IMG/VR virus record: IMGVR_UViG_3300005096_000137
Location: 64,001-128,000 of that record
DNA length: 64,000 bases
Reading direction: 5' to 3' (one strand)
Source of the DNA: a virus
The notes under the pieces were generated by a model. It searched no databases and was not told the origin of the DNA. It saw only the letters and a program-made list of their open reading frames with translations. The first letter of the stretch is position 1; each line of letters opens with the position of its first letter. Below are positions 3,232 to 43,723 of this stretch, piece after piece. The position numbers and the translations under genes are program-made.

Positions 3232-3902
3232 ATGTGATCACAACTCCCATGACGCTCCCTGATGAAGCAAATAATAAGGTGAATGCTGATTGCCGTTCCT
3301 TCACAGAATCAATGGAGGGTAAGGGGCAGTCCCTGGAGTACTACGAAGAGAATCGAGCTGCCTGGGACCCCTGGTATGATGTCTTTGTGGGTAAGAAAGC
3401 AGAGTACTTTGCCAGCCTCTACATGACATACAAGAAGGACTACCCATTGGTGTACCCAGATGTGTCGGTCCGTCAAGGATACCGGAAGGGGTGGGGCTTT
3501 GATTTAACATACGAAGACCTTCCCTCCGTGCATGTCAAGTCTTGTACTCAGCGGACAATCGATAGTGTTGGTGACTACAGTTGGACATGGCAGTGGAAGA
3601 ATCAACATGATGACGGCGGTCGGGACAGGGTATTTACGCAAGAAGAGCCTGGTCTTGTGGTCTGTGTGTTTCTCCCGAGTCTATCTGCACCTACTGCGGA
3701 TATTAAATTGGTGCTGCCCACTGAGATGATGTTGGAGAAGGTCCGGGATCCAAAGAGCACAACACACATCGGTTTTAAGAAGTGCTTGTATTTTGCTGAT
3801 TTCAGTAACGACCCACTTCCACCCCGATACAAAGACATTTGCAATAGTCCCACACTATCCAGTGCTGATCTCGATGCAATGATTGGAGGACTCGGCGTAT
3901 GA
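3222..3902 (+). CDS. hypothetical protein, possible PD-(D/E)XK-type nuclease
   Basis: GKKAE...PD...DL...VHVKS pattern. Confidence 0.45.
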   Translation: MELNVITTPMTLPDEANNKVNADCRSFTESMEGKGQSLEYYEENRAAWDPWYDVFVGKKAEYFASLYMTYKKDYPLVYPDVSVRQGYRKGWGFDLTYEDLPSVHVKSCTQRTIDSVGDYSWTWQWKNQHDDGGRDRVFTQEEPGLVVCVFLPSLSAPTADIKLVLPTEMMLEKVRDPKSTTHIGFKKCLYFADFSNDPLPPRYKDICNSPTLSSADLDAMIGGLGV

Positions 3903-4690
3903 CACTATCCCGCCGAAAACTACTCAAGGGCCTTGGGCTCAGCGGATTGAGCCTGGCTGTCTGTGTGGGTACGAAAATGACCCTCCCCATAGCTCAGTCG
4001 GAATCCCCCGACCCAACCCCTGAACCAACTCCTGAACCAACTTCTAAGAAGGGGTCTCGGGGGTCCATCAAGGAAATAGAAGCCCACATCGACGACTGCT
4101 GCATACCAAAGGCAACGCCCAAGCCGTCAATTGACGAACTTGTCGTGGACCACCTCGACCATAGTTTGGTGTCTCAGGAGACTGTGAACCAGGTTGTGAA
4201 GCAAGGTATTGAGGACACCAGGGCGGACCGGGAGCAGGGTCTTGAAGAGCTGGCGAAGCAGATCACACTGGTGGCGGAGCAGCAGGCATGCGAATGGGAG
4301 CAGAAGAAACATGAGTGGGAGCGACGTCGGGACCAGGAACGTCAGATGCAGTATCAAAGCAGTCAGTACCATACCAGGAGGTACCCACAACCTGATGGAC
4401 CTGATGGACCTGATCCACATGGTTTTCACTATGAAGAAATGGGATCAATTGATACCGTGTTGGGGCAACGCTTCACTACGTGTCAAGCGCCCCTATTTGA
4501 CATTAACTGCTTTCGTGATGACTCCGTACGGATGCTCCCTAACACCTACAAGGAATACTTTGTACGAAAGGTGGTCACGATTGTCGGCGAATCGGCGTGG
4601 GGTCCAGTCGTAGAGGATGAGTCGGTCCCTTGTGGGTATCGAGTTGCTTATCCAACTGAAATGGGTTTAGAAAGTGAGTACACACGGTGA
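3899..4690 (+). CDS. Tat signal peptide protein
   Basis: N-terminus SRRKLLKGLGLSGLSLAV, then a PTPEPT linker and coiled coil. Confidence 0.7.
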   Translation: MTLSRRKLLKGLGLSGLSLAVCVGTKMTLPIAQSESPDPTPEPTPEPTSKKGSRGSIKEIEAHIDDCCIPKATPKPSIDELVVDHLDHSLVSQETVNQVVKQGIEDTRADREQGLEELAKQITLVAEQQACEWEQKKHEWERRRDQERQMQYQSSQYHTRRYPQPDGPDGPDPHGFHYEEMGSIDTVLGQRFTTCQAPLFDINCFRDDSVRMLPNTYKEYFVRKVVTIVGESAWGPVVEDESVPCGYRVAYPTEMGLESEYTR

Positions 4691-5218: not shown

Positions 5219-5986
5219 ATGACAATTTCACGACGTGGTATGCTACGGGCTCTAGGGCTGGGTGGTGCAGGGCTGGCACTTGGGGCTCACAAGGGGTTGG
5301 CTAATCTACCTGCCCTGGTTGATGCAGGTTCAGATACAAAAGACTTACCTCAGACCCTCGAAGCGATCCAGGACCTCGCGGACGCGGCAGAGGTGTGTTC
5401 TACAAATATGGGCAAGGCTTGGAAGCCCATTAAGTTCCGGAATGAGACACAACTCCCACCCGAGTCTATTCTTCCTGATTCCCCAATCAGCTTTCACATC
5501 CCAGATGCTGATAAGTCCAAGGCGCTCCAGGGACTTGTGGATGACTATCTCATCCCAGGGTTGAAATACCCGAAAACGACTCACCATGACCGGCATCTGC
5601 TAATGACGTTCTCCACACCGGTTGCTGTTGATACCGGGGACAGAATCAATGCCACCTTCCCAGGCGGGAAGCGCAACTTCGATATCCTCGCCAGAATCAC
5701 AGCCATTGGTGTGACGTGTGCTGGTGAACTGGCGATTGACGATGAAAGTGCCGATGGTGGCGTAAGGGTGGCCCGTTGTTCGGAAGTCACATCAGGAACA
5801 CTCCAGGCGTCTGATGACCCCAAAATGGATGTGGCTCTCGCTAATTTCAACCGGCTGGGTGCCGAGAACTTGACACCCGGAGAATGGATGCTACTGTATA
5901 GTAGGGCTCCGGGTATTCTGGATCCCTTTCATCCTAGTAACTTTCCTAATTCCAAGACTCTCGGCGAATTTGACGAGCGTTACTAA
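5219..5986 (+). CDS. Tat signal peptide protein
   Basis: SRRGMLRALGLGGAGLALGA. Confidence 0.7.
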   Translation: MTISRRGMLRALGLGGAGLALGAHKGLANLPALVDAGSDTKDLPQTLEAIQDLADAAEVCSTNMGKAWKPIKFRNETQLPPESILPDSPISFHIPDADKSKALQGLVDDYLIPGLKYPKTTHHDRHLLMTFSTPVAVDTGDRINATFPGGKRNFDILARITAIGVTCAGELAIDDESADGGVRVARCSEVTSGTLQASDDPKMDVALANFNRLGAENLTPGEWMLLYSRAPGILDPFHPSNFPNSKTLGEFDERY

Positions 5987-6519
5987 TGTACACAATCACC
6001 CATGATGATCACCGCGCACACTACCTGGCAATGCCTCGGACAGGTTCCAAGGCTGTCCGGGATGCGTTCCGTTCTGTAGTTGGCTGTCGGACGGATGGGC
6101 ACCATTGTCTTGATGACTTCAAGCGGATGGTGTTTCCTGGTGACCTAGTGATGTCCACCGTGAGAAATCCATTTGATTGGTTTGTCTCATTCTGGTACCT
6201 CAATGGATGTCCTGGTAAGTTCGACCGGTTTGTGCCCAAACTCTGTGACACATCCGAGTGGATCAAACGGAATGCTGACGTTACGGAGTGCCGGTTGTTC
6301 TGGAAGTATGCACCCCTCTCCACTCATATCCTCCGGTACGAATATCTCCAGGATGACCTGGATACTGCCCTCATACTCAATGGATTCCCGGAGATGCCTC
6401 TCAAGCAGAATGGAACTCCTAAACCCAGACCCTATCAAACTTACTACAAGCGGTTGACACGAGACTACGTTCAGTCTCGCTTTGCTGCTGAAATCAAGGA
6501 ATATGGATACCAGTTTTGA
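5986..6519 (+). CDS. sulfotransferase family 2 protein
   Basis: 5'-PSB-like MPRTGSKAV; 3'-PB-like VRNPFDWFVSFW; LRYE; C-terminal EYGYQF. Confidence 0.8.
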   Translation: MYTITHDDHRAHYLAMPRTGSKAVRDAFRSVVGCRTDGHHCLDDFKRMVFPGDLVMSTVRNPFDWFVSFWYLNGCPGKFDRFVPKLCDTSEWIKRNADVTECRLFWKYAPLSTHILRYEYLQDDLDTALILNGFPEMPLKQNGTPKPRPYQTYYKRLTRDYVQSRFAAEIKEYGYQF

Positions 6520-7076
6520 CAGTCGTTAACCACAAATACAAGTACGTGTTCTTCCATGAGCCACACACTGGTGGTCGCTCGGTGGAGCAGTCTCTCATGC
6601 AGCACGAGGGTAGCCACAACTGCAACGGTGAGCACCACATTAGTGTACCCAGTATGCTGACGAAGGGGTTCATTACTCAGGACCAGCTCGAAGCATACAC
6701 CACCTTTCGAGTCGTTCGACATCCCCTCGATTGGTTGATGACCTGTTGGCTGAGGGTTCGACAACCTCACCAGACGCTGACTTTCTGGGATTGGCTCCAG
6801 CACTACGGTAAGCTCCAGATGATGGAGAGTCCAAAAGGGCGGACTCTGTTCTGGCGTTACCAGGGGCATGCCTTTGAGACCTTTAACTTGGAAGGGATTA
6901 CTCCCGATTTGACCATGTACCTTACCCGGTATACTGGCTGCCCCCAGTTCACCGTGGGCACAGTAGGCAAGACTGAAGATAAACCGAATTGGAGGGATGT
7001 ACTGACGGTTACCCAGCACTGGCAGGCTATCCAGATGTATCCTGATATCCAATACTACGGGTACAAATACTCATGA
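6516..7076 (+). CDS. sulfotransferase family 2 protein (degenerate motifs)
   Basis: FFHEPHTGGRSV, VVRHPLDWL, YGYKY. Confidence 0.7.
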   Translation: MTVVNHKYKYVFFHEPHTGGRSVEQSLMQHEGSHNCNGEHHISVPSMLTKGFITQDQLEAYTTFRVVRHPLDWLMTCWLRVRQPHQTLTFWDWLQHYGKLQMMESPKGRTLFWRYQGHAFETFNLEGITPDLTMYLTRYTGCPQFTVGTVGKTEDKPNWRDVLTVTQHWQAIQMYPDIQYYGYKYS

Positions 7077-7871: not shown

Positions 7872-8507
7872 GTGTTGAATCGACGTGACTTGTTAAAGAT
7901 GTTCGGCGTGGGGGCAGTCTCAGCCACCATCCCAGCATCCCTCTCTCGGGCTGTGGTTCCTAAGAACGAGATTGTTGAGGTGCCTTGGCAGGAACCTCCT
8001 GAGGCGGCACCCTTTGGGTTCGCTGACCCTCCCCCGAAACCAGATGAACTGGATGACCTGGTTGAGAACCTGCCCGTCCCGGCTCCCGTCGATGCAGTTC
8101 ATGAGAGCCTCAGGGGTCAGGGGTTAGTCAGGCTGGATGAACATGGTGTGGTTACGTTTCACAACACCAATACTGACGAGAAGGTACATCTCAAAATACA
8201 CGAGGGTTCCATGGCCTATGGGCAAAGTATGGATGTGCAGTTTAGTCATGACCGAGGTCGACTGACTGTGCCGAATGCCAGCCATGGTCCCCTAGAGGTC
8301 AGTTTGTACGCACGTATTGCAGAAGTGGTCTCCCCTAACCCTGGTTGGCTTCAGACAATTCGGAGTGCAGGTCCAGAGGGCCTGGATATGATCATCTCGT
8401 TGCCGAACTCTGACCTACTGGTACTGTTTTCCAGGTTGGTGTACCAGTCGATGTCTCTCGACCCCAAAGAAGGGCTATTTGAAATTGAAGGGGTATGCTA
8501 CAATTGA
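7872..8507 (+). CDS. Tat signal peptide protein with probable tail-tube-like domain
   Basis: NRRDLLKMFGVGAVSA, Pro-rich linker, beta-rich domain (LKIHEGSMAY...DRG.L...PLEVSL...FEIEGVC). The tail tube assignment is inference. Confidence 0.6.
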   Translation: MLNRRDLLKMFGVGAVSATIPASLSRAVVPKNEIVEVPWQEPPEAAPFGFADPPPKPDELDDLVENLPVPAPVDAVHESLRGQGLVRLDEHGVVTFHNTNTDEKVHLKIHEGSMAYGQSMDVQFSHDRGRLTVPNASHGPLEVSLYARIAEVVSPNPGWLQTIRSAGPEGLDMIISLPNSDLLVLFSRLVYQSMSLDPKEGLFEIEGVCYN

Positions 8508-9379
8508 GCTATGATTATGAAGTTGCTGGGCATGTCTACGTCGTCCCACTCCATGACATCTACGTGGACCCTGATTTCAATTGCCGGGGTGCATTTGCTC
8601 CTCATGAAGTTCACGGACTTGGTCAGAGTATCTCGGAAGAAGGTCAACGGGCTCCCATAGTTGTCCAACCTCTGGACGACGTCCCTGGACCAGAGCAGCC
8701 CCTGGGTGACTGGACCTTTCGTTTGATCGCCGGACATCGCCGCTACATGGCAATCGATAAATGGTCTACGGGTACTACTATCAACTGTGTGGTGGAGAGG
8801 GGACTGACCCGTGAACAGGCTTGCACTCTTAACTTCTCAGAGAATCTCCAGAGAAAGGACCTGAACATCTTGGAGGAGGCTCGCGCACTCCACCGCACCT
8901 GGCCAATCCAGTCATTGGGCATGATCTCAAAACTCATTGGGAAACCTAAGAAGTGGATCCACGCTCGCCGGATGCTCCTCCAGCTCCCTGATTACGTCCA
9001 GACACGGGCAGCCAGTAACGGTATTTCCCAGTACGATATCCTAATGCTTGCCAAACTCCCGCCCGACAGGGTGGAGGCAGCCTACGAGAAGCTGACTTCG
9101 TCAAAAGGAAAGACGGGGCGACGACCAGTGGTAGCCGGCAAACAGAAGTGGAGAAACCGACCTCGGGGAATCAATGAAATCTCAAAGATGGTCGCATTCC
9201 TGCTCCGCCACCAGCGATTCTCAGAACTTTCCGAAGCCGAAATTACTCTGGTCACGTCAACCCTGGTCTGGGTCACTAAAGGCATTGACGCACAGGAGTT
9301 ACTAGAGAACAGGTTTGGCTTCCCCGAGGGCAGCGTGGCTATCGATTCCACTGACGAAATTGAGGGAATGAAAGATTAG
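8495..9379 (+). CDS. ParB/Spo0J-like protein
   Basis: FNCR, GQRAPIVV, LIAGHRRYMA, NFSENLQRKDLNILEEA, then HTH. Confidence 0.88.
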   Translation: MLQLSYDYEVAGHVYVVPLHDIYVDPDFNCRGAFAPHEVHGLGQSISEEGQRAPIVVQPLDDVPGPEQPLGDWTFRLIAGHRRYMAIDKWSTGTTINCVVERGLTREQACTLNFSENLQRKDLNILEEARALHRTWPIQSLGMISKLIGKPKKWIHARRMLLQLPDYVQTRAASNGISQYDILMLAKLPPDRVEAAYEKLTSSKGKTGRRPVVAGKQKWRNRPRGINEISKMVAFLLRHQRFSELSEAEITLVTSTLVWVTKGIDAQELLENRFGFPEGSVAIDSTDEIEGMKD

Positions 9380-9404: not shown

Positions 9405-9432
9405 TTGACTTCCCGGACCCATCGAGTATACT
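9405..9432 (+). promoter_or_regulatory. sigma70-type promoter for the ncRNA array
   Basis: TTGACT-16-TATACT. Confidence 0.75.
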
Positions 9433-9542
9433 TGGTAATAGAACGTGCCAAAGATTCAAGACTAATTCCAGCCAAAAGAGCTGGTGAACTCTAACTTGAG
9501 GACAGAACGATGTAGTTGGCTGGGTGAAAGCCCAGCACCCTT

Positions 9543-9667
9543 GGAGGGGTAGCTCAGTTGGTAGAGCGCCAGTAGCATAAAAACAGTTGTGACAAACTTG
9601 CTATTAAGCCGAACATAGCTGATTATCTCGGAACTGGATGTCGCGGGTTCGAGACCCGCCCCCTCCG
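9543..9667 (+). ncRNA. tRNA-shaped RNA with a Y-RNA module replacing the anticodon loop
   Basis: Acceptor GGAGGGG/CCCCTCC, D arm GCTC-AGTTGGTA-GAGC, stem CCAGT/ACTGG, T arm GCGGG-TTCGAGA-CCCGC. The 59-nt insert contains CAGTTGTG/CATAGCTG, ACTTG, AAGCCGAA and TTATC. Confidence 0.85.
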
Positions 9668-9669
9668 CT

Positions 9670-9734
9670 GCCTAAGCCGAAGTCAATGCGTTATCTTTCA
9701 TATGATTACCCGCACCGACATTCACTTGCCAGGC
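9670..9734 (+). ncRNA. minimal Y-RNA-like stem-bulge RNA
   Basis: GCCT/AGGC, AAG/CTT, unpaired CC, GAA/TTC, GTC/GAC, TGCG/CGCA; loop begins TTATC. Confidence 0.8.
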
Positions 9735-9759
9735 TATTTTAGATGTAGACCAATACTTT

Positions 9760-9878
9760 ACGGGGGTAGCTCAGTTGTTAGAGCACCAGCTCGGGCCATT
9801 ACGACAAACTGTCCGGACAGTCTTGTATAACGGGTCACAGGGAGCTGGGGGTCGGTGGTTCAATTCCTCCTCCCCGTA
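9760..9878 (+). ncRNA. tRNA-shaped RNA with a long hairpin in place of the anticodon loop
   Basis: Acceptor ACGGGGG/TCCCCGT, D arm GCTC/GAGC, CCAGCTC/GAGCTGG, T arm GGTGG-TTCAATT-CCTCC. Insert hairpin ACAA-ACTGT-CCGG-ACAGT-C-TTGT. Confidence 0.8.
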
Positions 9879-9883
9879 CTACT

Positions 9884-9949
9884 GCCTAAGCCGAAATCAA
9901 TGCGTTATCTTTCATATGATTACCCGCATTAACATTCACCTGCTATGGC
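9884..9949 (+). ncRNA. minimal Y-RNA-like stem-bulge RNA (copy 2)
   Basis: Near-identical to 9670..9734 with stems retained (AATGCG/CGCATT). Confidence 0.8.
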
Positions 9950-10037
9950 GTTTTGAGTGTAGACCACGGACTACGAGCATCTTAGGCTGCTTATGGCCCT
10001 GGGGTCTCAGTTGTAGTTCAAGTCTGCCGCACTCACC

Positions 10038-10109
10038 TTGGGCGAAGCCGCAGCTCATGCGTTATCCTTGTAAGATTTGCCGCATACAGCATCGACTTGC
10101 TAAGCCCAA
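10038..10109 (+). ncRNA. minimal Y-RNA-like stem-bulge RNA (diverged copy 3)
   Basis: TTGGGC/GCCCAA closing stem, AAGCCG, GCT/AGC, ATGCG/CGCAT, TTATC, ACTTG. Confidence 0.75.
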
Positions 10110-10200
10110 TAATACAAAGTCCCCGCCTTCGGGTGGGGCGTTCGCACAAAGTCCCTGTCCGCCCTTATGGCGGGCAGGGTAGTGATTCAAGGAGAGTAAT

Positions 10201-10572
10201 GTGTCTGATTACGATGAGTTTGAATCTGAGTTTGAAGCCGAGGAATTCAAGGCAGAAATCAAACAGATGCAAGCAGAGTCGCAAGGGGTGGCTCTAGACC
10301 ACGCAATTTATCGAGAAGCTTCACAGCATGCTGTGTTTGATGAATGGCAGATAGTCTCTTTATTGAACCAAGATGCCTACTTCGTGGATGGTTGTGATCT
10401 GGAAGCTGATCCCAAGACAGGTAAGTGTGTCTGTGTGATTCTCCGAGAGAAGGATGAGGGTACTGGTAAAATGTGTAACCACTATTATACACTGAAGAAT
10501 GCCCTGATCCGCCTCCGTCACATAACGCCCAACTTGTTCCTCGCGAACGTGAAGGGGCAATCGGATGACTGA
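10201..10572 (+). CDS. hypothetical protein, PxLF-motif paralog 1
   Basis: AAGGAG RBS; YTLKNALIRLRHITPNLF. Confidence 0.7.
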   Translation: MSDYDEFESEFEAEEFKAEIKQMQAESQGVALDHAIYREASQHAVFDEWQIVSLLNQDAYFVDGCDLEADPKTGKCVCVILREKDEGTGKMCNHYYTLKNALIRLRHITPNLFLANVKGQSDD

Positions 10573-10891
10573 CTCCAAGATACCAACCGAGTTGGAATTG
10601 GCTGAAAAGAAGTACCATTATTTAGTGATTCGAGAATCCATTTTGAAAGCCGCGAAATCACACCGGGTTTACTGGCCATTGCAGATTCTCCTACTTCTTA
10701 GGGACCAAGCTTATATTGAAGGTGGCTATGGTGGCAATTCATATGAGATTCCTTCTGGTGTGGTGCGCGTGAATCTGGATGTAAAAACCTTGAATCCTAC
10801 CAGTCCGGCGAAAAGACTCTATTCTTTAGATCGTGTTATGAAACGACTTCGGCAAATTCATCCAAGTCTATTTAACCTGGGGGTTGAATAA
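10565..10891 (+). CDS. hypothetical protein, PxLF-motif paralog 2
   Basis: YSLDRVMKRLRQIHPSLF. Confidence 0.7.
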   Translation: MTDSKIPTELELAEKKYHYLVIRESILKAAKSHRVYWPLQILLLLRDQAYIEGGYGGNSYEIPSGVVRVNLDVKTLNPTSPAKRLYSLDRVMKRLRQIHPSLFNLGVE

Positions 10892-10896
10892 CCAGA

Positions 10897-11463
10897 ATGA
10901 ACTTTCAGAATACGACTGGGAATTATGCCATTGCAGCCGGTCTGGCCGCTTCTGCGCATACTAAGCAACGTCGGAAAGACCCTGATAGGACCCCCTACAT
11001 CAATCACCCACTTGAAGTTGCCGTCCTCTTAACATATGATGGGCAAGTGGATGATGTGGATACTCTGATCGCAGCAGTCCTTCATGATGTTGTGGAAGAT
11101 ACAGATATCACGCTAGGTTTTATCTTCACCCTGTTTGGTCCCCGAGTGAGGGACATCGTGGCCGAGGTTACTGACGACAAGTCGCTCCCGAGTGCAACAA
11201 GGAAGCAACTACAAATTGACAACGCCCCTGGTAAGTCAGACGCCGCCAAGATGATTAAGATCGCGGATAAGATAGTCAATATCCAAGACATGAGCACAGA
11301 GTCCCCTGTTGGCTGGTCGACTGACCGGAAGTTCGAGTACATTGATTGGGCGACGAAAGTCGTGGCAGGTTGTGCCGGCGTGAATTCTAATTTGGATGCC
11401 ATATTTCACAGTGCGGCTATCCAAGCCAAAGCCAACTGTACTACTGTTGGGAACCATGAGTAA
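10897..11463 (+). CDS. HD-domain small alarmone hydrolase (MESH1/SpoT-HD-like)
   Basis: PYINHP, AAVLHDVVEDT, EVTDDKSLP, RKQLQI, IKIADK. Confidence 0.9.
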   Translation: MNFQNTTGNYAIAAGLAASAHTKQRRKDPDRTPYINHPLEVAVLLTYDGQVDDVDTLIAAVLHDVVEDTDITLGFIFTLFGPRVRDIVAEVTDDKSLPSATRKQLQIDNAPGKSDAAKMIKIADKIVNIQDMSTESPVGWSTDRKFEYIDWATKVVAGCAGVNSNLDAIFHSAAIQAKANCTTVGNHE

Positions 11464-11526
11464 CCTCAATTCTACACGGTAACTCTCCGAGGGTTACTGT
11501 GCAAACTTTATGATTGGAGACAGAGA

Positions 11527-11844
11527 ATGGCAATTACTTTAGACACCACCTATCACGGCGTAGTTCAAGAGGTCCGTAACCTAAGCTACCAATGGGCAGA
11601 CAATTTGGTCGCCCTCTTGATTGTCGAAGCGGCTATGAAGCAAGGGGCTTTTAATCCACAGCAGGTCCGGGTACTTTTAGCAGACGGAGCCACGACTAAT
11701 CCTAATGTCAATCCTCATTTTGGATTACCTCGGGACTTTGAGGTCCGGATAAGTAACAGCCACACAGGGGGTGTCGGGATGTCTCTTGAACAGGCAGTGA
11801 GTTACTTGAAAGAGACCCAGCCCAATTTGTTCCTGGCTGACTAA
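11527..11844 (+). CDS. hypothetical protein, PxLF-motif paralog 3
   Basis: GGAG RBS; MSLEQAVSYLKETQPNLF. Confidence 0.7.
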   Translation: MAITLDTTYHGVVQEVRNLSYQWADNLVALLIVEAAMKQGAFNPQQVRVLLADGATTNPNVNPHFGLPRDFEVRISNSHTGGVGMSLEQAVSYLKETQPNLFLAD

Positions 11845-11851
11845 TACATGT

Positions 11852-11984
11852 AGTCCAAGAGCAACGGAATCAGAACCGAATAATGACTCTAAACTGAATC
11901 GACAAATCTGACCACCCTGGGTGGAGTCCGAGAGCAACGGAATCAGAACCGAATAATGACTCTAAACTGAATCGACAAATCTGA
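11852..11984 (+). repeat. two 60-bp direct repeats separated by a 13-nt hairpin
   Basis: Copies at 11852-11911 and 11925-11984 differ at one base; spacer CCACC-CTG-GGTGG. Confidence 0.95.
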
Positions 11985-11990
11985 ATCGAT

Positions 11991-12137
11991 GCGACTGTGG
12001 TGTAATGGTAGCACACATACTAACTAGGTTGTCAATAACTTGCGCAGAAGAAGTACCTTCGGGGAACCACGCTGAGCCGAATGTTAACCGTTATCTCTTG
12101 CACGAGTGTGGACTAGGTTCAATTCCTAGCAGTCGTT
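11991..12137 (+). ncRNA. tRNA-shaped RNA with a Y-RNA module in the anticodon position, directly upstream of Ro60
   Basis: Acceptor GCGACTG/CAGTCGT, D arm GTGT-AATGGTA-GCAC, CATACT/AGTGTG, T arm CTAGG-TTCAATT-CCTAG. Insert contains GGTTG/TAACC, ACTTG, a cTTCGg hairpin, GAGCCGAA and TTATC. Confidence 0.85.
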
Positions 12138-12165
12138 TTAACAATTTCACTGGAGAACTGAAATC

Positions 12166-13740
12166 ATGTCCTACTCAACTGATATTGGTCGAACTGATCA
12201 AGTTACTAACAACCAAGGTGGTCGTGTCTTCCAGATTGACTGCTGGGCACGCCTAGAGCGGTTCCTCATTCTTGGACACGAGGGTGGGAGCTACTACGCC
12301 GAGCAGCAGAAGCTGACTCTTGAGACAGTTGTTTGTATTGATGAGTGTCTGGCTGAAAGTTCGTACCTCATGGTGAAGGCTATCGTGGACATCAGCCAAT
12401 CAGGACGGGCTCCAAAGAATGACCCGGCCATCTTTGCGCTTGCCTACGTAGTGTCAAAGAAGGACGAGTCATCCCAGTATGCGCTCAAGTTTCTGGGGGA
12501 TGTGTGTCGGATTGGGACACATCTTGCTCAGTTCCTAAATCACTGTAAGAACCTTGGCAGAGGTTGGGGTCCATCATTCACGCGGGCAGTTGCTGAGTGG
12601 TACAACCGTGATCCAGAACGGCTTGCCATGCAGGTGACAAAATACGCGAACCGAAAAGGGTGGACACATCGTGACATTCTCCGCAAGGCGCACCCTTCGT
12701 CCAAGGATAAGAAGCTTGACAACATCTTCTGTTACCTGACCCAACATGCGAAGTGGTCACGCCGGAAGAACTCGGGACCTGCTGATGAGTTCCTGTGTGC
12801 GGTGGATGAAGCTAAGGACTCAAAAACGACCGTGGCTCGGCTCGTGGAACTAATTCAGTTGTATGGGCTGGTGCGCGAGCACATGCCAACCAATGCTTTG
12901 AACAATCGAGAAGTCTGGATGGCGCTGCTTCAAAACATGCCACTCACGGCAATGATTCGCAACCTGGGTAAGATGTCCAGCATTCGACTCCTCACACCCC
13001 TGAGCACTGGTTCAAAGCTGGTGCGGTCTGCACTCGAAGACTCTGGAAACCTAAAGAAACAACGGGTTCATCCCTTGTCATTACTGATTGCGCTCAAGCA
13101 ATATGGCGAAGGTCAGGGTCTTCGTGGCTCCCTTACTTGGGACCCTGTCCCACAGATTATGACAGGCTTGGACAATGCCTTCTATGAGGCGTTTGACTTC
13201 GTGGAGCCGACCAATAAGAACCACCTCCTAGGTGTTGATGTCTCAGGCTCTATGGACTGGACCAACTGTGTTGGGGCAGGTGTTCTCAAATGTTCCGAGG
13301 GTGCAGCAGCTATGGCTATGCTGGCAGCTCGGACAGAAGAGAACACGCACGTCTTTGGTTTTGCCGACGATTTCCGTGACCTGGGTATCACTGCTTCAGA
13401 TTCCTTGCAGACTGCATTGAAGAAGACCGAGACTGGGACCTTCGGCGGTACGGATTGTGGACTCCCCATGCACTACGCCGCCAATCATGGGATTGAGGTG
13501 GATGTGTTCTGCGTCTACACGGACAATGAAACGGGTGGTGGCTACTACAGTCGGACCAAGGACCCACACCAGGAACTTGAACGCTACCGGCAGACAATGG
13601 GACGGGACGCTAAACTGGCAGTGTTCGGGATGGCACAGAACGAGTTTAGTGTTGCTGATCCTAAAGACGCTGGGCAAATGGACTTTGTTGGATTTGATGC
13701 GTCGGCTCCAACTTTACTTGCGAACTTCGTTCGTGACTGA
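12166..13740 (+). CDS. rsr: Ro60/Rsr ortholog (TROVE + vWA domains)
   Basis: NNQGG..F, RLERFLILGHEGGSYY, KYANRKGWTHRDILRKAHP, MPLTAMIRNLGKM, MIDAS DVSGSM, GGTDC, YTDNET, GFD. Confidence 0.95.
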   Translation: MSYSTDIGRTDQVTNNQGGRVFQIDCWARLERFLILGHEGGSYYAEQQKLTLETVVCIDECLAESSYLMVKAIVDISQSGRAPKNDPAIFALAYVVSKKDESSQYALKFLGDVCRIGTHLAQFLNHCKNLGRGWGPSFTRAVAEWYNRDPERLAMQVTKYANRKGWTHRDILRKAHPSSKDKKLDNIFCYLTQHAKWSRRKNSGPADEFLCAVDEAKDSKTTVARLVELIQLYGLVREHMPTNALNNREVWMALLQNMPLTAMIRNLGKMSSIRLLTPLSTGSKLVRSALEDSGNLKKQRVHPLSLLIALKQYGEGQGLRGSLTWDPVPQIMTGLDNAFYEAFDFVEPTNKNHLLGVDVSGSMDWTNCVGAGVLKCSEGAAAMAMLAARTEENTHVFGFADDFRDLGITASDSLQTALKKTETGTFGGTDCGLPMHYAANHGIEVDVFCVYTDNETGGGYYSRTKDPHQELERYRQTMGRDAKLAVFGMAQNEFSVADPKDAGQMDFVGFDASAPTLLANFVRD

Positions 13741-34126: not shown

Positions 34127-35062
34127 ATGCTTGATCGTCGTGTATTTCTAAAGACCCTAAGCGCTGGTGCAATTGCGGCTATCCATGCAGCTAATGCAGC
34201 TAATGCAGCTAATGCAGAGACACCCCCGCTACCTCACTCTCACCCACTCCCACGTCCACAGTTTATCTGCCTTCCAAAGCGGTTCCCGGAGCCCCCAAGA
34301 CAAATTCACATAGGTCCTCGAAAAGGAAAGCATGCGCCACGCCTCTGGCAAGTCCCACAAGGTTGGTTTAAGTATCGGGACCATAAACTACTGGGCACTT
34401 GTGGCGCTGGCAGTACCACAGAAGAGGACATCGGGACCTTTACAGCAGGTCCCGGAGAAGACAAGCTTCAGTACCGTTTTGGCAAGACCCTGGAGTGCGA
34501 CGGTTTTATGCGAATAGGTGCCAGTCACACTGGTTGGACAAATCCCATATTCCTCCTGGCAGTTCATGACGGACCTGTTGTTGAATTCGGGTGTTACGGT
34601 CGCCAACCCGGCGATCTGGCGTTGGAATTGGGGTCCCGTCCATACTATCACCCCTGCTCGTTTGTCTCAGTGTTCCGACCCAATAGTCCACTACCTGATG
34701 ATGGTCACTACGAGACCACGATTGATTGGGACCTAGGTTCCCAGAAGGCAGACCCATACAAAACTGCCCTTCGCTTGAATTTTGCATACGAACATTACAG
34801 TCTTTCACGATCCCAGCGGATGGCTGATTTCGTGATGCCTCCTCGAATGCTGGCTTTTGAATATGACAATGATGCGTATGATGCAATTATGTATGCTATG
34901 GATAGTTACAAGGTTGCTCCCACCCAGGGCTTCCGGATATCAAGCCACGGGTACAATTTCCAACTCTCTACCCGAAATCCACCAGTCCTGGCTCAGAATT
35001 ACGCAATACAATCAGCCAGTGCCATGCGAGGCAGTCCAGTATGCTTAGACGAGACTTCCTAA
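34127..35062 (+). CDS. Tat signal peptide protein, paralog family member A
   Basis: DRRVFLKTLSAGAIAA with ANA repeats; G..+.CDG and P+FL+A+.+GP+VE motifs. Confidence 0.75.
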   Translation: MLDRRVFLKTLSAGAIAAIHAANAANAANAETPPLPHSHPLPRPQFICLPKRFPEPPRQIHIGPRKGKHAPRLWQVPQGWFKYRDHKLLGTCGAGSTTEEDIGTFTAGPGEDKLQYRFGKTLECDGFMRIGASHTGWTNPIFLLAVHDGPVVEFGCYGRQPGDLALELGSRPYYHPCSFVSVFRPNSPLPDDGHYETTIDWDLGSQKADPYKTALRLNFAYEHYSLSRSQRMADFVMPPRMLAFEYDNDAYDAIMYAMDSYKVAPTQGFRISSHGYNFQLSTRNPPVLAQNYAIQSASAMRGSPVCLDETS

Positions 35063-35634
35063 AGGCAACGGGCGCGAGCCTAGCACTGTCAAGCATGGCA
35101 GTTGCTGGGCTCCCGGTGTTGACACCACCACCAAAATGCAAACCTATACCCCAGTACCTGGAACTGTTCCAGCCATACCATCGCCGACTCGACGGTGTAA
35201 AACCTGGTCAGTTCTTTACGTACAAGGGTCATTGGAAACAAGTCGAGAGTTACGGAAGTGAAGTACGTTGTGACGGGTACATGTACCTGGGTGATCGTTT
35301 GATGCCACCAAAGAATCGATGGTCCATTGGAGATGCACCAGTGTTTTTGATTGCACTCACTAATGGTCCCATTGTTGAATTGGTAGGCGACTGCTTGGAA
35401 GACCCAGCATTCGCGAAACTCCTGGGACCAATAACTCACCCGTACCCATTTGAATTGTACACCATGATGAACGAGGATGTGCTGTCCGACTTCACATGGT
35501 ATTATGCGGACGTCACACAGAATGCGTGCGAAGAAATGACTTATGGTTCACCCAGCTACCTGGACGTTGAGTCCAGAATGCAGAAGGTGCGAAGTTATTA
35601 TAACATTGACGAGCACGGTATGGTTCAGAAATAG
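35041..35634 (+). CDS. Tat signal peptide protein, paralog family member B
   Basis: LRRDFLKATGASLAL..AVA; GSEVRCDG, PVFLIALTNGPIVE. Confidence 0.78.
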   Translation: MLRRDFLKATGASLALSSMAVAGLPVLTPPPKCKPIPQYLELFQPYHRRLDGVKPGQFFTYKGHWKQVESYGSEVRCDGYMYLGDRLMPPKNRWSIGDAPVFLIALTNGPIVELVGDCLEDPAFAKLLGPITHPYPFELYTMMNEDVLSDFTWYYADVTQNACEEMTYGSPSYLDVESRMQKVRSYYNIDEHGMVQK

Positions 35635-35644
35635 GGGATTTCAG

Positions 35645-36475
35645 ATGGACAGACGCGGATTTCTAGGCAAGCTTGGTATTGGGGTAGCAGCGGCTGGTGT
35701 TTTGGGCCGTGAGGCTATCGCGCGGATTCCCAAGGAGACCAAGAAACTTCCCAAGGAGCTATTACTACCTCCCGAGAAACTCACCTTGGCTGAGGTGACC
35801 ACTGCTGAGGTGACCACTGCTCTCAAGAGTAATTTCCCGGGGTTTGTGGACCAGGTTTCAAATACCGCGACAAAAGTTCCCCGCCGGTTGCCCACTCACA
35901 TTGCCCACCACCTCTACCCAGACAATGGTTTGTACCTCCAATTGATGAACTGCGATCACCATGTCCCTAACAAACGTTACGGTAAATACCGATCGGGAGA
36001 ATACGTGATCCAGAGTATCAATGACCCACCTGGCTTACAGGTCCTTGGTTCAGAGTTTACCATTGATGGCGCTGCCATGGCAGGTTATGTGGCGGTACAC
36101 AGTCCAACGGGGATTATATCCGAGGACCTAAAGAGTCCATTGTTCACTGATTTCCAACTCATGGCCAAGCGGAACCCACTCGACTATCATGTTGGCTGTG
36201 TCATGTGGTTAGCCCTGAGGAATGGTCCAGTGGTTGCATATAACTTCTTGAACAAAGCCCAACATCGGTGTGCCCGTACCCTTCGAGGCTCTCAGGACGT
36301 TGCATATCCTTGGTGTCTACAATCACGGGAATTTCGCAACAATGTGGGTGTGAATCACATTCGCTTTTATTACATGGCTGTGGCTGGAACTACACACGAA
36401 CCCCGGACTACACCCGAATCAATACGTGAGAGATTTGTGGAAGAAGGTATGTCTAACCCTGGAGAATTACGATGA
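35645..36475 (+). CDS. Tat signal peptide protein, paralog family member C
   Basis: True start MDRRGFLGKLGIGVAAAG after AGGGG RBS; YLQL, GSEFTIDG, WLALRNGPVV. Confidence 0.78.
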   Translation: MDRRGFLGKLGIGVAAAGVLGREAIARIPKETKKLPKELLLPPEKLTLAEVTTAEVTTALKSNFPGFVDQVSNTATKVPRRLPTHIAHHLYPDNGLYLQLMNCDHHVPNKRYGKYRSGEYVIQSINDPPGLQVLGSEFTIDGAAMAGYVAVHSPTGIISEDLKSPLFTDFQLMAKRNPLDYHVGCVMWLALRNGPVVAYNFLNKAQHRCARTLRGSQDVAYPWCLQSREFRNNVGVNHIRFYYMAVAGTTHEPRTTPESIRERFVEEGMSNPGELR

Positions 36476-37275
36476 GTTTGAATCGACGCGGCTTTCTTGG
36501 ATTCCTTGGACTGGGTGCAGTTGCTGCTGGAGCAGCATCTATTCCAGCCAAAGCTTTGGCGGGCGCCAAGGACGTGCTCCCTGAGTCTTTATTGACAGAG
36601 GTCTCAACCCCTGAGGCTCTTGTGCCCCACCAAGGGGCTCACTTAGACCCCACCACGGATTACCCTCACATACTCCGCTTGGTCCATGGGAATAGCCATT
36701 GGGCACGCCGTGGGCAGGCTGAGGCTGGGGACTGGATTACCCATGCGTGGAGGTCCAAGCAGTGTGTCTCCCATGGTCGCCGTCTGAGGTGCATCGGGTT
36801 TCGACATTTGGGCGATGTCGCCTTCCACTTCCACGAGCTGGAAGCAGGCACTGTGACAGACAAGTACACAGATCCGGATAGTCCAGAGTTCAAGGAGGTT
36901 GTCCAGAAGGCAGGCGAGTCCCGAGTCCCTTATGGTGTCAGTCATTATGCCTGGGGACCCCGCTATTCCATAACCCTTGTAGGTATTGGAGCTGTCGAAT
37001 TCACGGGGTTGAACCGGAGCAACCGGGGGTTTATGCGGCAGGCGATGGGCAAGCGGACCTCTTGTGACGCATTCACACTGGTGTCCCAAAAGGTGGTTCA
37101 CTCAACTGGCGGAACCTGGTTTAAGCCTACGATGGAATTCATTGATTCAAATGAGAGTAAGCTGTGGACACCCAGCTTAACTCAGCGAGTTGGAAAGAGT
37201 CAAATCTCCAAGTTCGCCAACATGTCCTCAACCCAGTTTGAATCAATGTATCGTGATGACAGGGATATGAGATGA
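36472..37275 (+). CDS. Tat signal peptide protein, paralog family member D (putative phage SSB-like domain)
   Basis: NRRGFLGFLGLGAVAAG..ALA; LRL...S, DPDSPEF, WGPRY, TWFKP. Confidence 0.75.
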   Translation: MSLNRRGFLGFLGLGAVAAGAASIPAKALAGAKDVLPESLLTEVSTPEALVPHQGAHLDPTTDYPHILRLVHGNSHWARRGQAEAGDWITHAWRSKQCVSHGRRLRCIGFRHLGDVAFHFHELEAGTVTDKYTDPDSPEFKEVVQKAGESRVPYGVSHYAWGPRYSITLVGIGAVEFTGLNRSNRGFMRQAMGKRTSCDAFTLVSQKVVHSTGGTWFKPTMEFIDSNESKLWTPSLTQRVGKSQISKFANMSSTQFESMYRDDRDMR

Positions 37276-38288
37276 ACAACCGACGTGATTTCTTAAAGAC
37301 ATTGGGACTTGGAGCCGCTGGGGTTACCCTGGTGGGTCGGCAGTTGTTGGTAGGGTCTCCTAAGGGTGTCCCCTCAGTCAAACTCCCACCAATTAGGGCT
37401 CTGGGGAGTGACTCACTTCCGGTTGATCCCCCGAGGATTGAACTTCCACCAGTTGGAATGACCTACCCTACTCAGGATAACCTACTGCCCTCAATGTGGG
37501 CAGTCAGTGCTCAGAGACTCCTTGAACAGAATCTGGTCATGGGTAATCTGGTTCACCGGGATTGTAGCGACGAGGTGTCACAGTTTGGGGACATAATCAA
37601 TTTGAGAAGCCCTGGCTGCAATATCCCAATACCACTGGACCAGCTTTTCTCCACACACTTTGTCATCAGAGATGGGGATGCCTCCAAGTCCTTTCAAGAA
37701 TTAAGGGAGCAATACCTCCGCCCGAGTATCCAAAAGCTTGCTCGCCAGATTGACCAGGCACTCATTGGGCAAGCTGTCCACTACACGGATAATACCGTTG
37801 GGGGTCAGTACTCTCTCTATGGTGCTAATGCAACCAACACCATCATTGATGCTCGCCGGAAACTAAACGATAATAGGGCACCCCTCTCTGACCGTAACCT
37901 GGTGTTGTCGACTGCCAGCTCGCAAGCCCTAAAGTGTTCAGAGATACTCCCGGTCATTCGGGATGGGGGTGGGTATCCGCCTCAAATCACTGCTCTCGAA
38001 GAAGCACGTCTGGGAAAGTACATTGGCTTCACCTGCTGGCATGTTCCTGATATGCCGTGGCATATCAACCTGGGTTTCCACCCTGACACAATGGCCCTGG
38101 TCACCCGACCATTACCTCTGGCCCTACCTAGACTCCCCATCCGCTCAGGTATTGGTGTTCACAACAACCTTGCACTCCGGGTGTCAATGATGTATGACGT
38201 GCAGACGTCTGGGACACGGATAACCACGGATGTGTTGGCGGGTATTGGTGTTCTTGACACTAACTTAGGCGTTATCATAGAAGGCTAG
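37272..38288 (+). CDS. Tat signal peptide fused to a P22 gp5-type (HK97-fold) major-capsid-like domain
   Basis: NRRDFLKTLGLGAAG; LVMGNLVHRD...FGD.IN, YLRP....LA.QID, IDARRKLN...AP...R.LVL, GFH..MALVTRPL, LRVSM.YD, DVL.G..VLD. Confidence 0.82.
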   Translation: MNNRRDFLKTLGLGAAGVTLVGRQLLVGSPKGVPSVKLPPIRALGSDSLPVDPPRIELPPVGMTYPTQDNLLPSMWAVSAQRLLEQNLVMGNLVHRDCSDEVSQFGDIINLRSPGCNIPIPLDQLFSTHFVIRDGDASKSFQELREQYLRPSIQKLARQIDQALIGQAVHYTDNTVGGQYSLYGANATNTIIDARRKLNDNRAPLSDRNLVLSTASSQALKCSEILPVIRDGGGYPPQITALEEARLGKYIGFTCWHVPDMPWHINLGFHPDTMALVTRPLPLALPRLPIRSGIGVHNNLALRVSMMYDVQTSGTRITTDVLAGIGVLDTNLGVIIEG

Positions 38289-42468: not shown

Positions 42469-42643
42469 TGAAACTGATTGTCATGGATTTGGTCCTCCGT
42501 AAATTTGAGGAGGCGAGGTTGGCGGAGATGGATGAGTTAGGCAAGGCTTATGCAGAAGATGCCGACCGTACTTCCCCCGTTTTTCCACAACCACCTCTCC
42601 CTCCCAACCCTCACCCTAAACCCCCTTATTGGAACTTTTGGTA

Positions 42644-43723
42644 ATGTCGAAAACAATAGTTAGCGTCGAACGTGTTAATGCTGTAGAAGCCCATCCCAAT
42701 GCTGATCGTCTGGAAGTTATCCGGGTGCTTGGTTATCAAGTGGTTACCCAGAAGGGTAACTACAAGGTTGGAGACCTTGCTGTATACTTCCCTCCGGATA
42801 TCCTCATCCCGCTTGACGCGGCTGAAGAGTTGGGGGTCGCGAAGTATTTGAAACATGCGATATTTCCGGGTGAGGAAGTTCAGACACAGTGCCGAGTCGG
42901 AGCCACTCGTTTGCGAGGGAAGCCTTCGCATGGGTTCTGTACGCCCACCACCCATGACTGCCGAATACCGGCTGGTACACCCCTTGGGACTAACGTCTCT
43001 GACTACTACAATGCCCACAAGTATGACCCACCGGTTCGGCTTGGCGCTGGAGATGCGGCCAGCCCCTTGGAAGCTTTCCATGGGTATACTAGTATCGAGA
43101 ATGTACAACGATACACTGATGCGTTCCAAGAAACGGATCAGGTAGTTATTACCGAGAAGCTTCATGGCGTCAATTGCCGGTTGGGTCTCATCCGTGACCC
43201 CAGTGGTGAGTACCAGTTCTGCGCTGGGTCCCACAATGTCCGTCGAAAAGAGGGCGGGTTGTATTGGCACTTCATGCAGGAACAGGTCCTCCATATGCTT
43301 ACGTCCCTAGTTGCGGGACGGGATGGTGAACCCTGCCATAACGCTATTATCTTCGGGGAAATCTTTGGACCTGGCATTCAAGACTTGGATTATGGGCGGT
43401 CTGAGAAGTCATTCCGGGTTTTCGACATCTCCATTGATGGCGAGTACATGAACTACTGGGATATGGTGAAACACTGTGATGCCCACCGGCTGAGGTGTGT
43501 TCCCCACCTGTATACAGGTGCCTACAGTGCTGATGTCGTGGAACACCATACCTATGGGGACACCACCTTTGATGACACAAAGAGTACGTTCAAAGGGCGG
43601 GAGGGCTGTGTAGTCCGACCTATCCACGAAGCCTATAGTGACATCCTTGGCGGACGTTTGATTGTGAAGTCAGTCTCAGCCGACTATCGGGACCGTAAGG
43701 GTGCCAAAGACACTGGTGAGTAG
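42644..43723 (+). CDS. RNA ligase, DRB0094/Rnl5 family
   Basis: N-terminal OB HPNADRLE, TEKLHG.N, FGEIFGPGIQ, FDI, REGCV, KSVS..Y. Confidence 0.9.
   Translation: MSKTIVSVERVNAVEAHPNADRLEVIRVLGYQVVTQKGNYKVGDLAVYFPPDILIPLDAAEELGVAKYLKHAIFPGEEVQTQCRVGATRLRGKPSHGFCTPTTHDCRIPAGTPLGTNVSDYYNAHKYDPPVRLGAGDAASPLEAFHGYTSIENVQRYTDAFQETDQVVITEKLHGVNCRLGLIRDPSGEYQFCAGSHNVRRKEGGLYWHFMQEQVLHMLTSLVAGRDGEPCHNAIIFGEIFGPGIQDLDYGRSEKSFRVFDISIDGEYMNYWDMVKHCDAHRLRCVPHLYTGAYSADVVEHHTYGDTTFDDTKSTFKGREGCVVRPIHEAYSDILGGRLIVKSVSADYRDRKGAKDTGE

What the first reader, a model, noticed from the sequence alone, without database searches (positions are those of the whole stretch)
7872..8507. Tat signal fused to a probable tail tube domain
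Seen: NRRDLLK signal, Pro-rich linker, then about 120 aa of alternating beta pattern ending FEIEGVCYN. Inference from recalled uncultured-phage sequences: K+.EG.+.Y......DRG.L.....P++VSL and the terminal strands match a tail-tube family. The gene lies far from any morphogenesis operon.
Basis: inference. Interest (0 to 1): 0.7.

Follow-up and report, generated by a model that had tools for sequence, protein, structure and literature searches.

The report
Export-tagged tail-tube copy in phage
A large uncultured phage, probably of planctomycete bacteria, carries among its DNA-replication genes a small, fast-evolving gene that joins a bacterial folded-protein (Tat) export signal to a stripped-down copy of the phage's own tail-tube protein; I found no paper describing this design and its function is untested.

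Summary
ORF 7872-8507 (+, 211 aa, GTG start) has four parts:
- a twin-arginine signal (NRRDLLK);
- a 15-residue uncharged h-region ending in SRA;
- a 56-residue Pro/acidic linker;
- a 128-residue all-beta domain.

The tail-tube reading is supported. The domain is homologous to the tube core of the phage's own major tail protein. That protein sits 66 kb away, just before the chaperone-like ORFs and the tape measure (hhalign 99.7 %, E 7e-27). The AlphaFold model matches only tail-tube/Hcp/Dit folds (Z 7-7.8).

About ten such proteins exist in 5.8 billion. All lie directly upstream of a ParB-like gene in the replication module. The signal is their best-conserved part (57 % identity, against 32 % for the domain). 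The gene diverges much faster than its neighbours (24-30 % against 51-77 %).

It is one of eight Tat-tagged ORFs in this record (0.1 expected by chance). Another is a capsid protein without its insertion domain. Relatives of the real tube gene sit as prophages in Planctomycetota genomes that encode TatC.

Export and function are inferred, not shown. My best guess is an exported virion mimic acting in the cell envelope. The scan noted the same design earlier on other phage DNA. I found no paper describing it.

The parts
7872..8507 (+). Whole ORF (211 aa, GTG start, TGA stop): Tat-type signal, linker and tail-tube core domain
   Evidence: About 10 homologues of 23-58 % identity keep the same architecture.
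7872..7952 (+). Residues 1-27: twin-arginine signal peptide. The n-region is MLNRRDLLK, the h-region is 15 uncharged residues, and the c-region is SRA (an AxA-like site with a basic residue).
   Evidence: This is the best-conserved segment of the family, at 57 % mean pairwise identity.
7953..8120 (+). Residues 28-83: Pro/acidic linker, predicted disordered and hypervariable
   Evidence: 12 Pro and 12 Asp/Glu in 56 residues. pLDDT is under 50 over most of residues 12-77. Mean pairwise identity is 21 % and the length varies.
8121..8504 (+). Residues 84-211: minimal tail-tube/Hcp-fold domain, paralogous to the tube core of the phage's own major tail protein (genome 5136-6263, outside the window)
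   Evidence: hhalign E 5.5e-19 and 6.8e-27. AF2 pLDDT about 90. Foldseek and VIA-align matches are tail tubes and Hcp, Z 7.0-7.8.
8495..9379 (+). ParB-like gene overlapping the end of the ORF by 13 nt; the conserved downstream partner
   Evidence: Pfam ParB_N/HTH_ParB and PHROG ParB-like. The same neighbour follows the homologue in every context where a neighbour could be identified.
3899..4690 (+). Tat-tagged ORF T1 (263 aa), same signal type, passenger domain unassigned
5219..5986 (+). Tat-tagged ORF T2 (255 aa). Residues 90-129 weakly resemble residues 98-136 of the lineage's capsid protein.
   Evidence: hhalign E 1.6e-4, probability 50 %.
34127..37275 (+). Four consecutive Tat-tagged ORFs T4-T7 (34127-35062, 35041-35634, 35645-36475, 36472-37275)
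   Evidence: T6 and T7 pass the TIGR01409 cut-off.
37272..38288 (+). Tat-tagged ORF T8 (338 aa): P22-type capsid protein core lacking the insertion-domain region
   Evidence: Pfam P22_CoatProtein 1.2e-10 and TAT_signal 21.8 bits. phrog_283 5.6e-26. TIGR01409 20.4 bits against a cut-off of 16.7. 40 % identity to the 471-aa capsid protein of a relative, with residues 224-398 missing.

Best explanation
The gene encodes a non-virion, exported copy of the tail-tube subunit.

Shown:
- The protein is a three-part fusion: a twin-arginine signal, a long disordered Pro/acidic linker, and a minimal tube-core domain.
- The domain descends from this phage lineage's own major tail protein and has lost that protein's two decoration domains.
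- It is a separate, conserved, fast-diverging gene in the replication module, next to parB.

Inferred:
- The host Tat translocase recognises the signal and exports the already folded beta-domain to the periplasm of a (probably planctomycete) host.
- There the protein is either released after cleavage behind SRA27 or stays tethered by its signal, with the linker as a spacer.

Speculative:
- In the envelope the domain acts as a mimic of the tube subunit. It would bind what normally docks on a tube ring, namely the tape measure or tail-tip proteins that an incoming related phage pushes into the periplasm. This would interfere with superinfection.
- It would work alongside the seven other Tat-tagged proteins of the record.

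Odds: exported (about 0.8); non-structural mimic acting outside the cytoplasm (about 0.5); superinfection exclusion specifically (about 0.3).
For: - Architecture and start codon.
- Homology to the phage's own tube protein. Tblastn also links other family members directly to it (L007 E 5e-16, L015 E 4e-13).
- The reference protein is a real tube protein. It lies before two small ORFs and the tape measure. The same order TerL-portal-capsid-tube-tape measure is seen in relatives. Its family has more than 756 members. Its tube-core fold scores Z 7-8.2.
- Fold of the target.
- Signal:
  - It is the best-conserved segment.
  - Weak PDB sequence hits to the N-terminus include PaoA and the flavocytochrome c sulfide dehydrogenase subunit, which I know from memory to be Tat substrates.
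  - Eight such N-termini occur against 0.1 expected.
  - Three of them pass TIGR01409.
- Host has Tat: 11 of 12 genomic hits of the tube family are Planctomycetota MAGs, several inside 0.3-1 Mb contigs. All five tested encode TatC.
- Non-structural role: the gene lies 43 kb from the nearest tail gene. It has conserved adjacency to parB, then Ro60 or DNA polymerase A, in every context where neighbours could be identified. Relatives with complete tail modules lack it.
- Conflict-type evolution: 24-30 % identity where flanking genes of the same contigs keep 51-77 %.
- A parallel case in the same record: the capsid core without its insertion domain behind the same kind of signal.
Against: - Export is not demonstrated. 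PF10518 and TIGR01409 score the signal below their curated cut-offs. Position +2 after RR is Leu rather than the usual Phe.
- No dedicated signal-peptide predictor was available.
- The host is inferred from relatives' prophages, not from this phage.
- Nothing here shows a binding partner.
- The superinfection idea explains an exported tube copy, but explains an exported capsid copy less well.
- The record holds no terminase, portal or full-length capsid gene. It is probably incomplete, and the whole gene set cannot be judged.
Confidence: 0.5

Rival explanations
1. Anti-defence decoy with Tat 'hitchhiker' disposal. The minimal tube core, like the minimal capsid core T8, is made early. It binds cytoplasmic host immune sensors that recognise conserved virion folds. 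The Tat signal then carries the folded decoy-sensor complex out of the cytoplasm, or at least sequesters it at the membrane.
For: - Two different virion cores, stripped of their surface domains, carry the same tag.
- The gene lies among replication genes.
- It diverges quickly.
- Tat can co-export partners that have no signal, as with PaoABC (PMC4273604).
- Solved DSR2-tail tube complexes are among the fold neighbours. This shows that host defences do sense this fold.
Against: - No precedent for this mechanism was found.
- Known sensors of tube proteins are very large, which makes co-export doubtful (own knowledge).
- A tag that removes the decoy from the cytoplasm lowers its concentration where it would be needed.
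- No defence-related family matched the eight proteins convincingly.
Confidence: 0.15
2. The N-terminus is not used for export. The protein stays in the cytoplasm and acts on tail assembly, for example as a cap, initiator or poison subunit for the phage's own or a competitor's tube. Alternatively, the shared N-terminal peptide targets the eight proteins to another phage structure.
For: - Both curated Tat HMMs are below threshold for this protein.
- The tube-core motifs shared with the real tube protein are kept.
- Phage-specific N-terminal targeting peptides exist, such as the capsid-targeting sequences of T4 internal proteins (own knowledge).
Against: - The eight N-termini fit the full Tat pattern: RR motif, Gly/Ala-rich uncharged h-region, and AxA-type ends. 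Three pass TIGR01409.
- The gene is not in the tail module, and relatives with the same tail module lack it.
- A long disordered Pro/acidic linker is typical of envelope proteins, not of tube subunits.
Confidence: 0.12
3. Host take-over by loading or jamming the Tat pathway. Sturdy, self-associating virion domains behind Tat signals would occupy the translocon. This would depress export of host Tat substrates such as cell-wall amidases and redox enzymes. The identity of the passenger would matter little.
For: - Eight Tat-tagged ORFs with unrelated passengers occur in one record.
- The signal is more conserved than the passenger.
Against: - The passenger domain keeps specific tube motifs over 23-58 % identity. 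This argues for selection on the domain itself.
- No precedent was found.
Confidence: 0.08
4. A decaying duplicate of the tube gene with a fortuitous hydrophobic N-terminus and no function.
For: - The family is small.
- Identity to the parent gene is low.
Against: - The frame is open in all members, with conserved start, signal, motifs, invariant C-terminal G.C and gene position across contigs of 23-58 % identity.
Confidence: 0.03

Closest known systems
Siphophage major tail (tube) proteins. Nearest is this lineage's own family (genome 5136-6263, more than 756 relatives, no Pfam or PHROG). Solved neighbours are NF5 tube 9m7c, SPP1 gp17.1 6yeg, lambda gpV 8k36, T5 pb6 5ngj and monocin MttP 8qhs.
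   Same: It shares the tube-core beta-sandwich with a long hairpin. Sequence homology to the lineage's tube protein is E 6.8e-27. The shared motifs are G.G..TY, DRG.LD, PLEV and C-terminal G.C.
   Different: It has a Tat-type signal and a 56-residue disordered linker in place of the N-terminal part. Both decoration domains are missing, and two of the three invariant cysteines of the parent family are lost. It is encoded in the replication module beside parB, not before the tape measure. Relatives with the same tail lack it.
Hcp of type VI secretion systems (for example B. fragilis Hcp5 7yw0, B. pseudomallei Hcp1 8z7k)
   Same: Same fold and similar size. Z is 7.8 over 102-107 residues.
   Different: There is no sequence similarity and no T6SS genes are present. 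Hcp has no signal peptide and leaves the cell through the T6SS, not through Tat (own knowledge).
Bacterial Tat substrates and hitchhiker export (TIGR01409 / PF10518; PaoABC, PMC4273604)
   Same: The N-terminus has the RR motif, a mildly hydrophobic Gly/Ala/Ser-rich h-region, a basic residue in the c-region and an AxA-like end.
   Different: The passenger is a phage virion fold, not a cofactor enzyme. The HMM scores are just below the curated cut-offs. The protein is encoded by a phage.
Envelope-located superinfection-exclusion proteins of phages (TP-J34 Ltp lipoprotein that blocks the incoming tape measure; T4 Sp and Imm), cited from own knowledge
   Same: They are small phage-encoded proteins sent to the envelope, encoded outside the morphogenesis genes and fast-evolving. 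This is the proposed mode of action.
   Different: They have no fold or sequence relation to this protein. They use Sec or lipoprotein signals. None is a copy of a virion protein. Function here is untested.
Distal tail proteins (Dit; PF21821, PF16774, SPP1 Dit 2x8k)
   Same: The N-domain has the same tube-like fold.
   Different: Dit genes follow the tape measure and carry extra domains. Sequence homology here is to the tube protein, not to Dit.

Membership tests
Phage tail tube protein superfamily (fold level) | Tube-core beta-sandwich with long beta-hairpin | tested here: met
   The AF2 model has pLDDT of about 90 for residues 84-211. Foldseek's listed top PDB hits are tail tube, Hcp and related tail or baseplate chains. 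VIA-align gives Z 7.0-7.8, 100-120 residues aligned, rmsd about 3.3 A. Atlas and BFVD agree.
Phage tail tube protein superfamily (fold level) | Sequence homology to a bona fide tube protein | tested here: met
   hhalign of A1 against A2 gives 99.7 %, E 6.8e-27. The reference protein sits before the chaperone-like ORFs and tape measure and has a tube core by structure.
Functional tail tube subunit (virion component) | Encoded in the tail module, upstream of assembly chaperones and tape measure | tested here: not met
   The gene is at genome 71.9 kb, between sulfotransferase-like and ParB-like genes. The tail module is at 3.6-28.5 kb. The same non-tail position is seen in every relative whose neighbours could be identified.
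Functional tail tube subunit (virion component) | Forms hexameric rings that stack into a tube; present in virions | not testable with these tools
   This needs SEC-MALS or cryo-EM of residues 84-211 and virion proteomics. Modelling gave no usable answer (see Tried and rejected).
Tat (twin-arginine) substrates | N-terminal S/T-R-R-x-F-L-K-like motif followed by an uncharged h-region and an AxA-type c-region | tested here: met
   NRRDLLK at residues 3-9, 15 uncharged residues, then SRA with Arg26. The pattern is conserved in the family.
Tat (twin-arginine) substrates | Score above the curated cut-off of the signal HMMs | tested here: not met
   PF10518 scores 14.8 bits against 22.7. TIGR01409 scores 14.5 against 16.7. 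Three sister ORFs of the record pass TIGR01409, at 18.0, 18.2 and 20.4 bits.
Tat (twin-arginine) substrates | Host possesses a Tat translocase | tested here: inconclusive
   The host of this phage is unknown. Eleven of 12 genomes carrying the related tube gene are Planctomycetota, and all 5 tested encode TatC. The phage record itself has no TatA.
Tat (twin-arginine) substrates | TatC-dependent, RR-dependent export of the folded protein | not testable with these tools
   This needs reporter fusions in wild-type and tatC-deleted strains.
Hcp (T6SS) | Encoded with T6SS core genes and secreted by them | tested here: not met
   This is a phage record, and no T6SS genes turned up among the ORFs scanned against Pfam or PHROGs. 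The resemblance is in fold only.

The most novel reading that the evidence does not exclude
The gene belongs to a so far undescribed class of phage accessory genes: exported virion mimics. In this class, large phages put Tat signals on minimal cores of their own tube, capsid and other virion proteins. There are eight such genes in this record, and the scan noted similar sets on other phage DNA. The products would fight a conflict outside the cytoplasm. They might capture ejected proteins of superinfecting phages, or drag host sensors of virion folds out of the cell by Tat hitchhiking.
Probability: 0.3. Interest if true: 0.85.

Novelty: new variant of a known kind. Interest (0 to 1): 0.66.

Why it matters
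Tail-tube proteins are known as virion building blocks and, as Hcp, as secretion-system parts. An export-tagged, stripped-down copy kept among early or replication genes would be a new use of this fold.

It would also be a rare case of a phage exploiting the host's folded-protein export route.

Together with the Tat-tagged capsid core in the same record, it points to a recurring strategy of large uncultured phages. That strategy could reveal a new layer of phage-phage or phage-host conflict in the cell envelope.

It is directly testable with export reporters and plating assays.

It also shows an annotation pitfall. The public gene call starts at Met10 and hides the signal.

Tried and rejected
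- Homo-oligomer modelling (complex prediction, four copies of residues 80-211) gave no verdict, so it says nothing about ring formation.
- Cultured-phage collection: no tblastn match for the target, the real tube protein or the DNA polymerase.
- IMG/VR scans with the target and with T8 found no relatives. A scan with alignment A1 was not possible.
- Pfam and PHROGs give no family for the domain or for the real tube protein.
- PADLOC gave nothing for the eight Tat ORFs except a weak T1 hit.
- Whole-chain Foldseek of the real tube protein was uninformative because of its inserted domains. VIA-align resolved it.
- Haloarchaeal host (where Tat is the main export route): rejected, because the proteome is not acidic (median pI 5.75).
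- Lipoprotein: rejected, because the signal has no Cys.
- Circular permutation or mosaic, as noted on other genomes: the alignment to the tube core is collinear here. I could not decide whether residues 85-98 correspond to the parent's first strand (residues 8-20) or to residues 224-230 (hhalign E 0.006 against 0.14, both insignificant).
- Search for the record's own capsid, portal and terminase, to compare with T8: none found.
- No phage TatA.
- No sigma-70-like promoter directly upstream.
- Literature searches found no description of Tat-tagged virion-protein copies.
- One failed because the records were not held.

Full report
**Setting.** The window is bases 64001-128000 of a 148,427-bp linear IMG/VR virus record. 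Almost all genes are on the + strand and GC is about 51 %. The target ORF (window 7872-8507, genome 71872-72507) lies in a replication and nucleotide-metabolism region. Upstream are a helicase, an exonuclease, a Dam-like methylase, two sulfotransferase-like genes and two unassigned ORFs. Downstream are a ParB-like gene that overlaps its end by 13 nt, a gene-free RNA region, an HD hydrolase, Ro60/TROVE and a family-A DNA polymerase.

**Observation.** The 211-aa frame is open. The GTG start is preceded by AAAGGAA. Three homologues with DNA in hand start with ATG at the equivalent codon behind GGAG-like sites. The first nine residues are conserved across the family. The public gene call for this very protein starts at Met10 and so hides the motif (P0002). 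The segments are as follows:
- n-region MLNRRDLLK;
- h-region of 15 uncharged residues;
- c-region SRA;
- a 56-residue linker with 12 Pro and 12 acidic residues;

**Family.** An exhaustive phmmer run over 1.84 billion representatives found six relatives besides the protein itself. The word-indexed search added one at 58 % identity. A profile search added two more, one of them a fragment. That makes about ten proteins in 5.8 billion. All keep the same three-part layout. Mean pairwise identity is 57 % in the signal, 21 % in the linker and 32 % in the domain, so the N-terminal signal is the most constrained part.

Wherever the flanking genes could be identified, the gene is directly followed by a ParB-like gene. 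In most of these contexts Ro60/TROVE and/or DNA polymerase A follow further downstream. For P0003 the downstream gene is cut by the contig end and unidentified. On the contigs L015, L017 and L007, the flanking genes are 51-77 % identical to those of the window. The target's homologue is only 24-30 % identical. The gene is kept in place but diverges much faster than its neighbours.

**The domain is a tail-tube core.**
- Within the genome, BLAST gave one hit: residues 104-209 to residues 233-363 of the 375-aa product of genome 5136-6263.
- Profile comparison makes this solid. A1 against that protein gives 99.1 %, E 5.5e-19. A1 against an alignment of 30 of its homologues gives 99.7 %, E 6.8e-27.
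- That protein is the lineage's major tail protein by several criteria:
  - It is followed by two small ORFs and a 1288-aa tape measure (PhageMin_Tail 7.7e-25).
  - In relatives the order is terminase, portal, capsid, connectors, this protein, two small ORFs, tape measure.
  - It has more than 756 relatives, many at 60-79 % identity.
  - Its model (pLDDT 78.7) has a tube core made of residues 10-21 plus 232-375. This core scores Z 7-8.2 to the tubes of HFTV1, YSD1, NF5, SPP1 and others.
  - Two inserted decoration domains score Z 10-11 to Bxb1 and Mystique decorations.
- A short (about 245-aa) form of the family lacks one insert.
- The target's own model has pLDDT of about 90 over residues 84-211. 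Matches in four libraries:
  - Foldseek against the PDB returns tail tube, Hcp and related tail or baseplate chains as its listed top hits (best E 3.5e-3).
  - VIA-align gives Z 7.0-7.8 with 100-120 aligned residues.
  - The ESM-Atlas and BFVD searches return tube and Dit-like clusters.
- On their own these Z values are middling. Together with the sequence homology they settle the fold.
- Relative to its parent, the target has lost both decoration domains, some loops and two of three invariant cysteines. It keeps the motifs G.G..TY, DRG.LD, PLEV and the C-terminal G.C.

**The signal.** The N-terminus fits the textbook Tat pattern. Its weak PDB sequence hits include PaoA and the flavocytochrome c sulfide dehydrogenase subunit, which I know from memory to be Tat substrates. 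However, PF10518 (14.8 bits against 22.7) and TIGR01409 (14.5 against 16.7) stay under their cut-offs.

Context strengthens the reading. Eight ORFs of the record start this way (window 3899, 5219, 7872, 34127, 35041, 35645, 36472 and 37272), against 0.1 expected. Three of them pass TIGR01409.

One of them, T8 (37272-38288), is a P22-type capsid protein (Pfam 1.2e-10, phrog_283 5.6e-26). It is 40 % identical to the 471-aa capsid protein of a relative. It carries the signal plus linker in front and lacks residues 224-398, which is the position of the P22 insertion domain. Two different virion proteins have thus been reduced to their cores and given the same kind of tag.

**Host.** The tube family occurs in 12 species genomes. 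Eleven are Planctomycetota MAGs (Planctomycetaceae, Aureliella, Thermoguttaceae), and several hits lie inside contigs of 0.29-1.07 Mb, so they are prophages. All five genomes tested encode TatC. They hold only the real tube gene, with no tagged copy. Thirteen IMG/VR relatives of 48-106 kb also lack the tagged copy. The tagged gene is therefore an accessory of a small subgroup with the Ro60/ParB/PolA module. A haloarchaeal host was excluded by proteome pI.

**Caveat on the record.** No terminase, portal or full-length capsid gene was found. A 104-kb relative has them just upstream of the tube gene. CheckV's 100 % probably reflects an expected length near 100 kb, and the head module may lie outside the record. 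For the target this does not matter, because its full-length parent is on the same record.

**Mechanism.** The architecture, ancestry, conservation pattern and position are shown. Export by the host Tat system is inferred. I rate it at about 0.8, given the conserved signal and the eightfold recurrence.

What the exported domain does is speculative. I favour a virion mimic acting in the envelope. A tube subunit's natural partners are the tape measure and tail-tip proteins, and an incoming siphophage releases exactly these into the periplasm. The gene's early-region position and rapid divergence fit a conflict gene such as superinfection exclusion.

The rivals are:
- a decoy for cytoplasmic sensors, disposed of by Tat hitchhiking;
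- a non-export role of the N-terminus;
- Tat overloading;
- a decaying duplicate.

**Prior knowledge.** Four full-text searches and two targeted readings found no paper on Tat-tagged copies of virion proteins. Earlier notes of this scan describe the same design on other phage DNA: tube, sheath and capsid copies, and one phage with its own TatA. They also flagged the eight ORFs of this window. I took those notes as leads only. I tested the TatA idea on this record and found none. I tested the mosaic or permutation idea on the target, and its alignment to the tube core is collinear.

Noticed in passing
window 37272-38288: T8 is a P22-type capsid protein core behind a Tat signal that passes TIGR01409. 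It is 40 % identical to a relative's 471-aa capsid protein but lacks residues 224-398 (the insertion-domain position). It is the last of five consecutive Tat-tagged genes (34127-38288).
   Followed up: partly
window 5219-5986: In Tat-tagged ORF T2, residues 90-129 weakly match residues 98-136 of the lineage's capsid protein (hhalign E 1.6e-4, probability 50 %). This may be a capsid-derived segment.
   Followed up: partly
whole record (G000, 148,427 bp): No terminase, portal or full-length capsid gene is detectable although CheckV calls the record 100 % complete. A 104-kb relative (L014) has TerL-portal-capsid directly upstream of the tube gene. The record probably lacks its head module.
   Followed up: partly
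L002:75-938 and L004:15986-16711 (genome 75-938 and 55986-56711): Two further ORFs carry the decoration domain that is inserted in the major tail protein (35-41 % identity to its residues 124-217). It looks like a mobile surface module reused in several proteins.
   Followed up: partly
L013:8827-11113; IMG/VR relatives G002, G003, G004, G009, G010, G011: Several relatives carry two tandem copies of the tube gene, so duplication of this gene is common in the lineage.
   Followed up: no
window 9405-13740; L006:7656-9191; window 42629-43723: RNA-repair and quality-control set: Ro60/TROVE behind a gene-free region with a sigma-70-like promoter at 9405, an HD hydrolase (10897-11463), RtcB (Pfam 1.5e-102) and an RNA ligase. 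ARAGORN finds no tRNA in the window.
   Followed up: no
window 5986-7076: Two adjacent sulfotransferase-like genes (weak Pfam Sulfotransfer_2 and phrog_3347 hits) sit between the Tat-tagged ORFs T2 and T3. One is 56 % identical in relative L015.
   Followed up: no
L003:9164-10807 (genome 29164-30807): A 547-aa Cys-rich protein with two long near-identical coiled-coil repeats follows a ClpP-like 'head maturation protease' hit. It matches no family and has a low-confidence Atlas model.
   Followed up: partly
window 7872-7898: The public gene call of this protein starts at Met10 (P0002). The same holds for homologue P0004, so automatic annotation hides the twin-arginine motif.
   Followed up: yes
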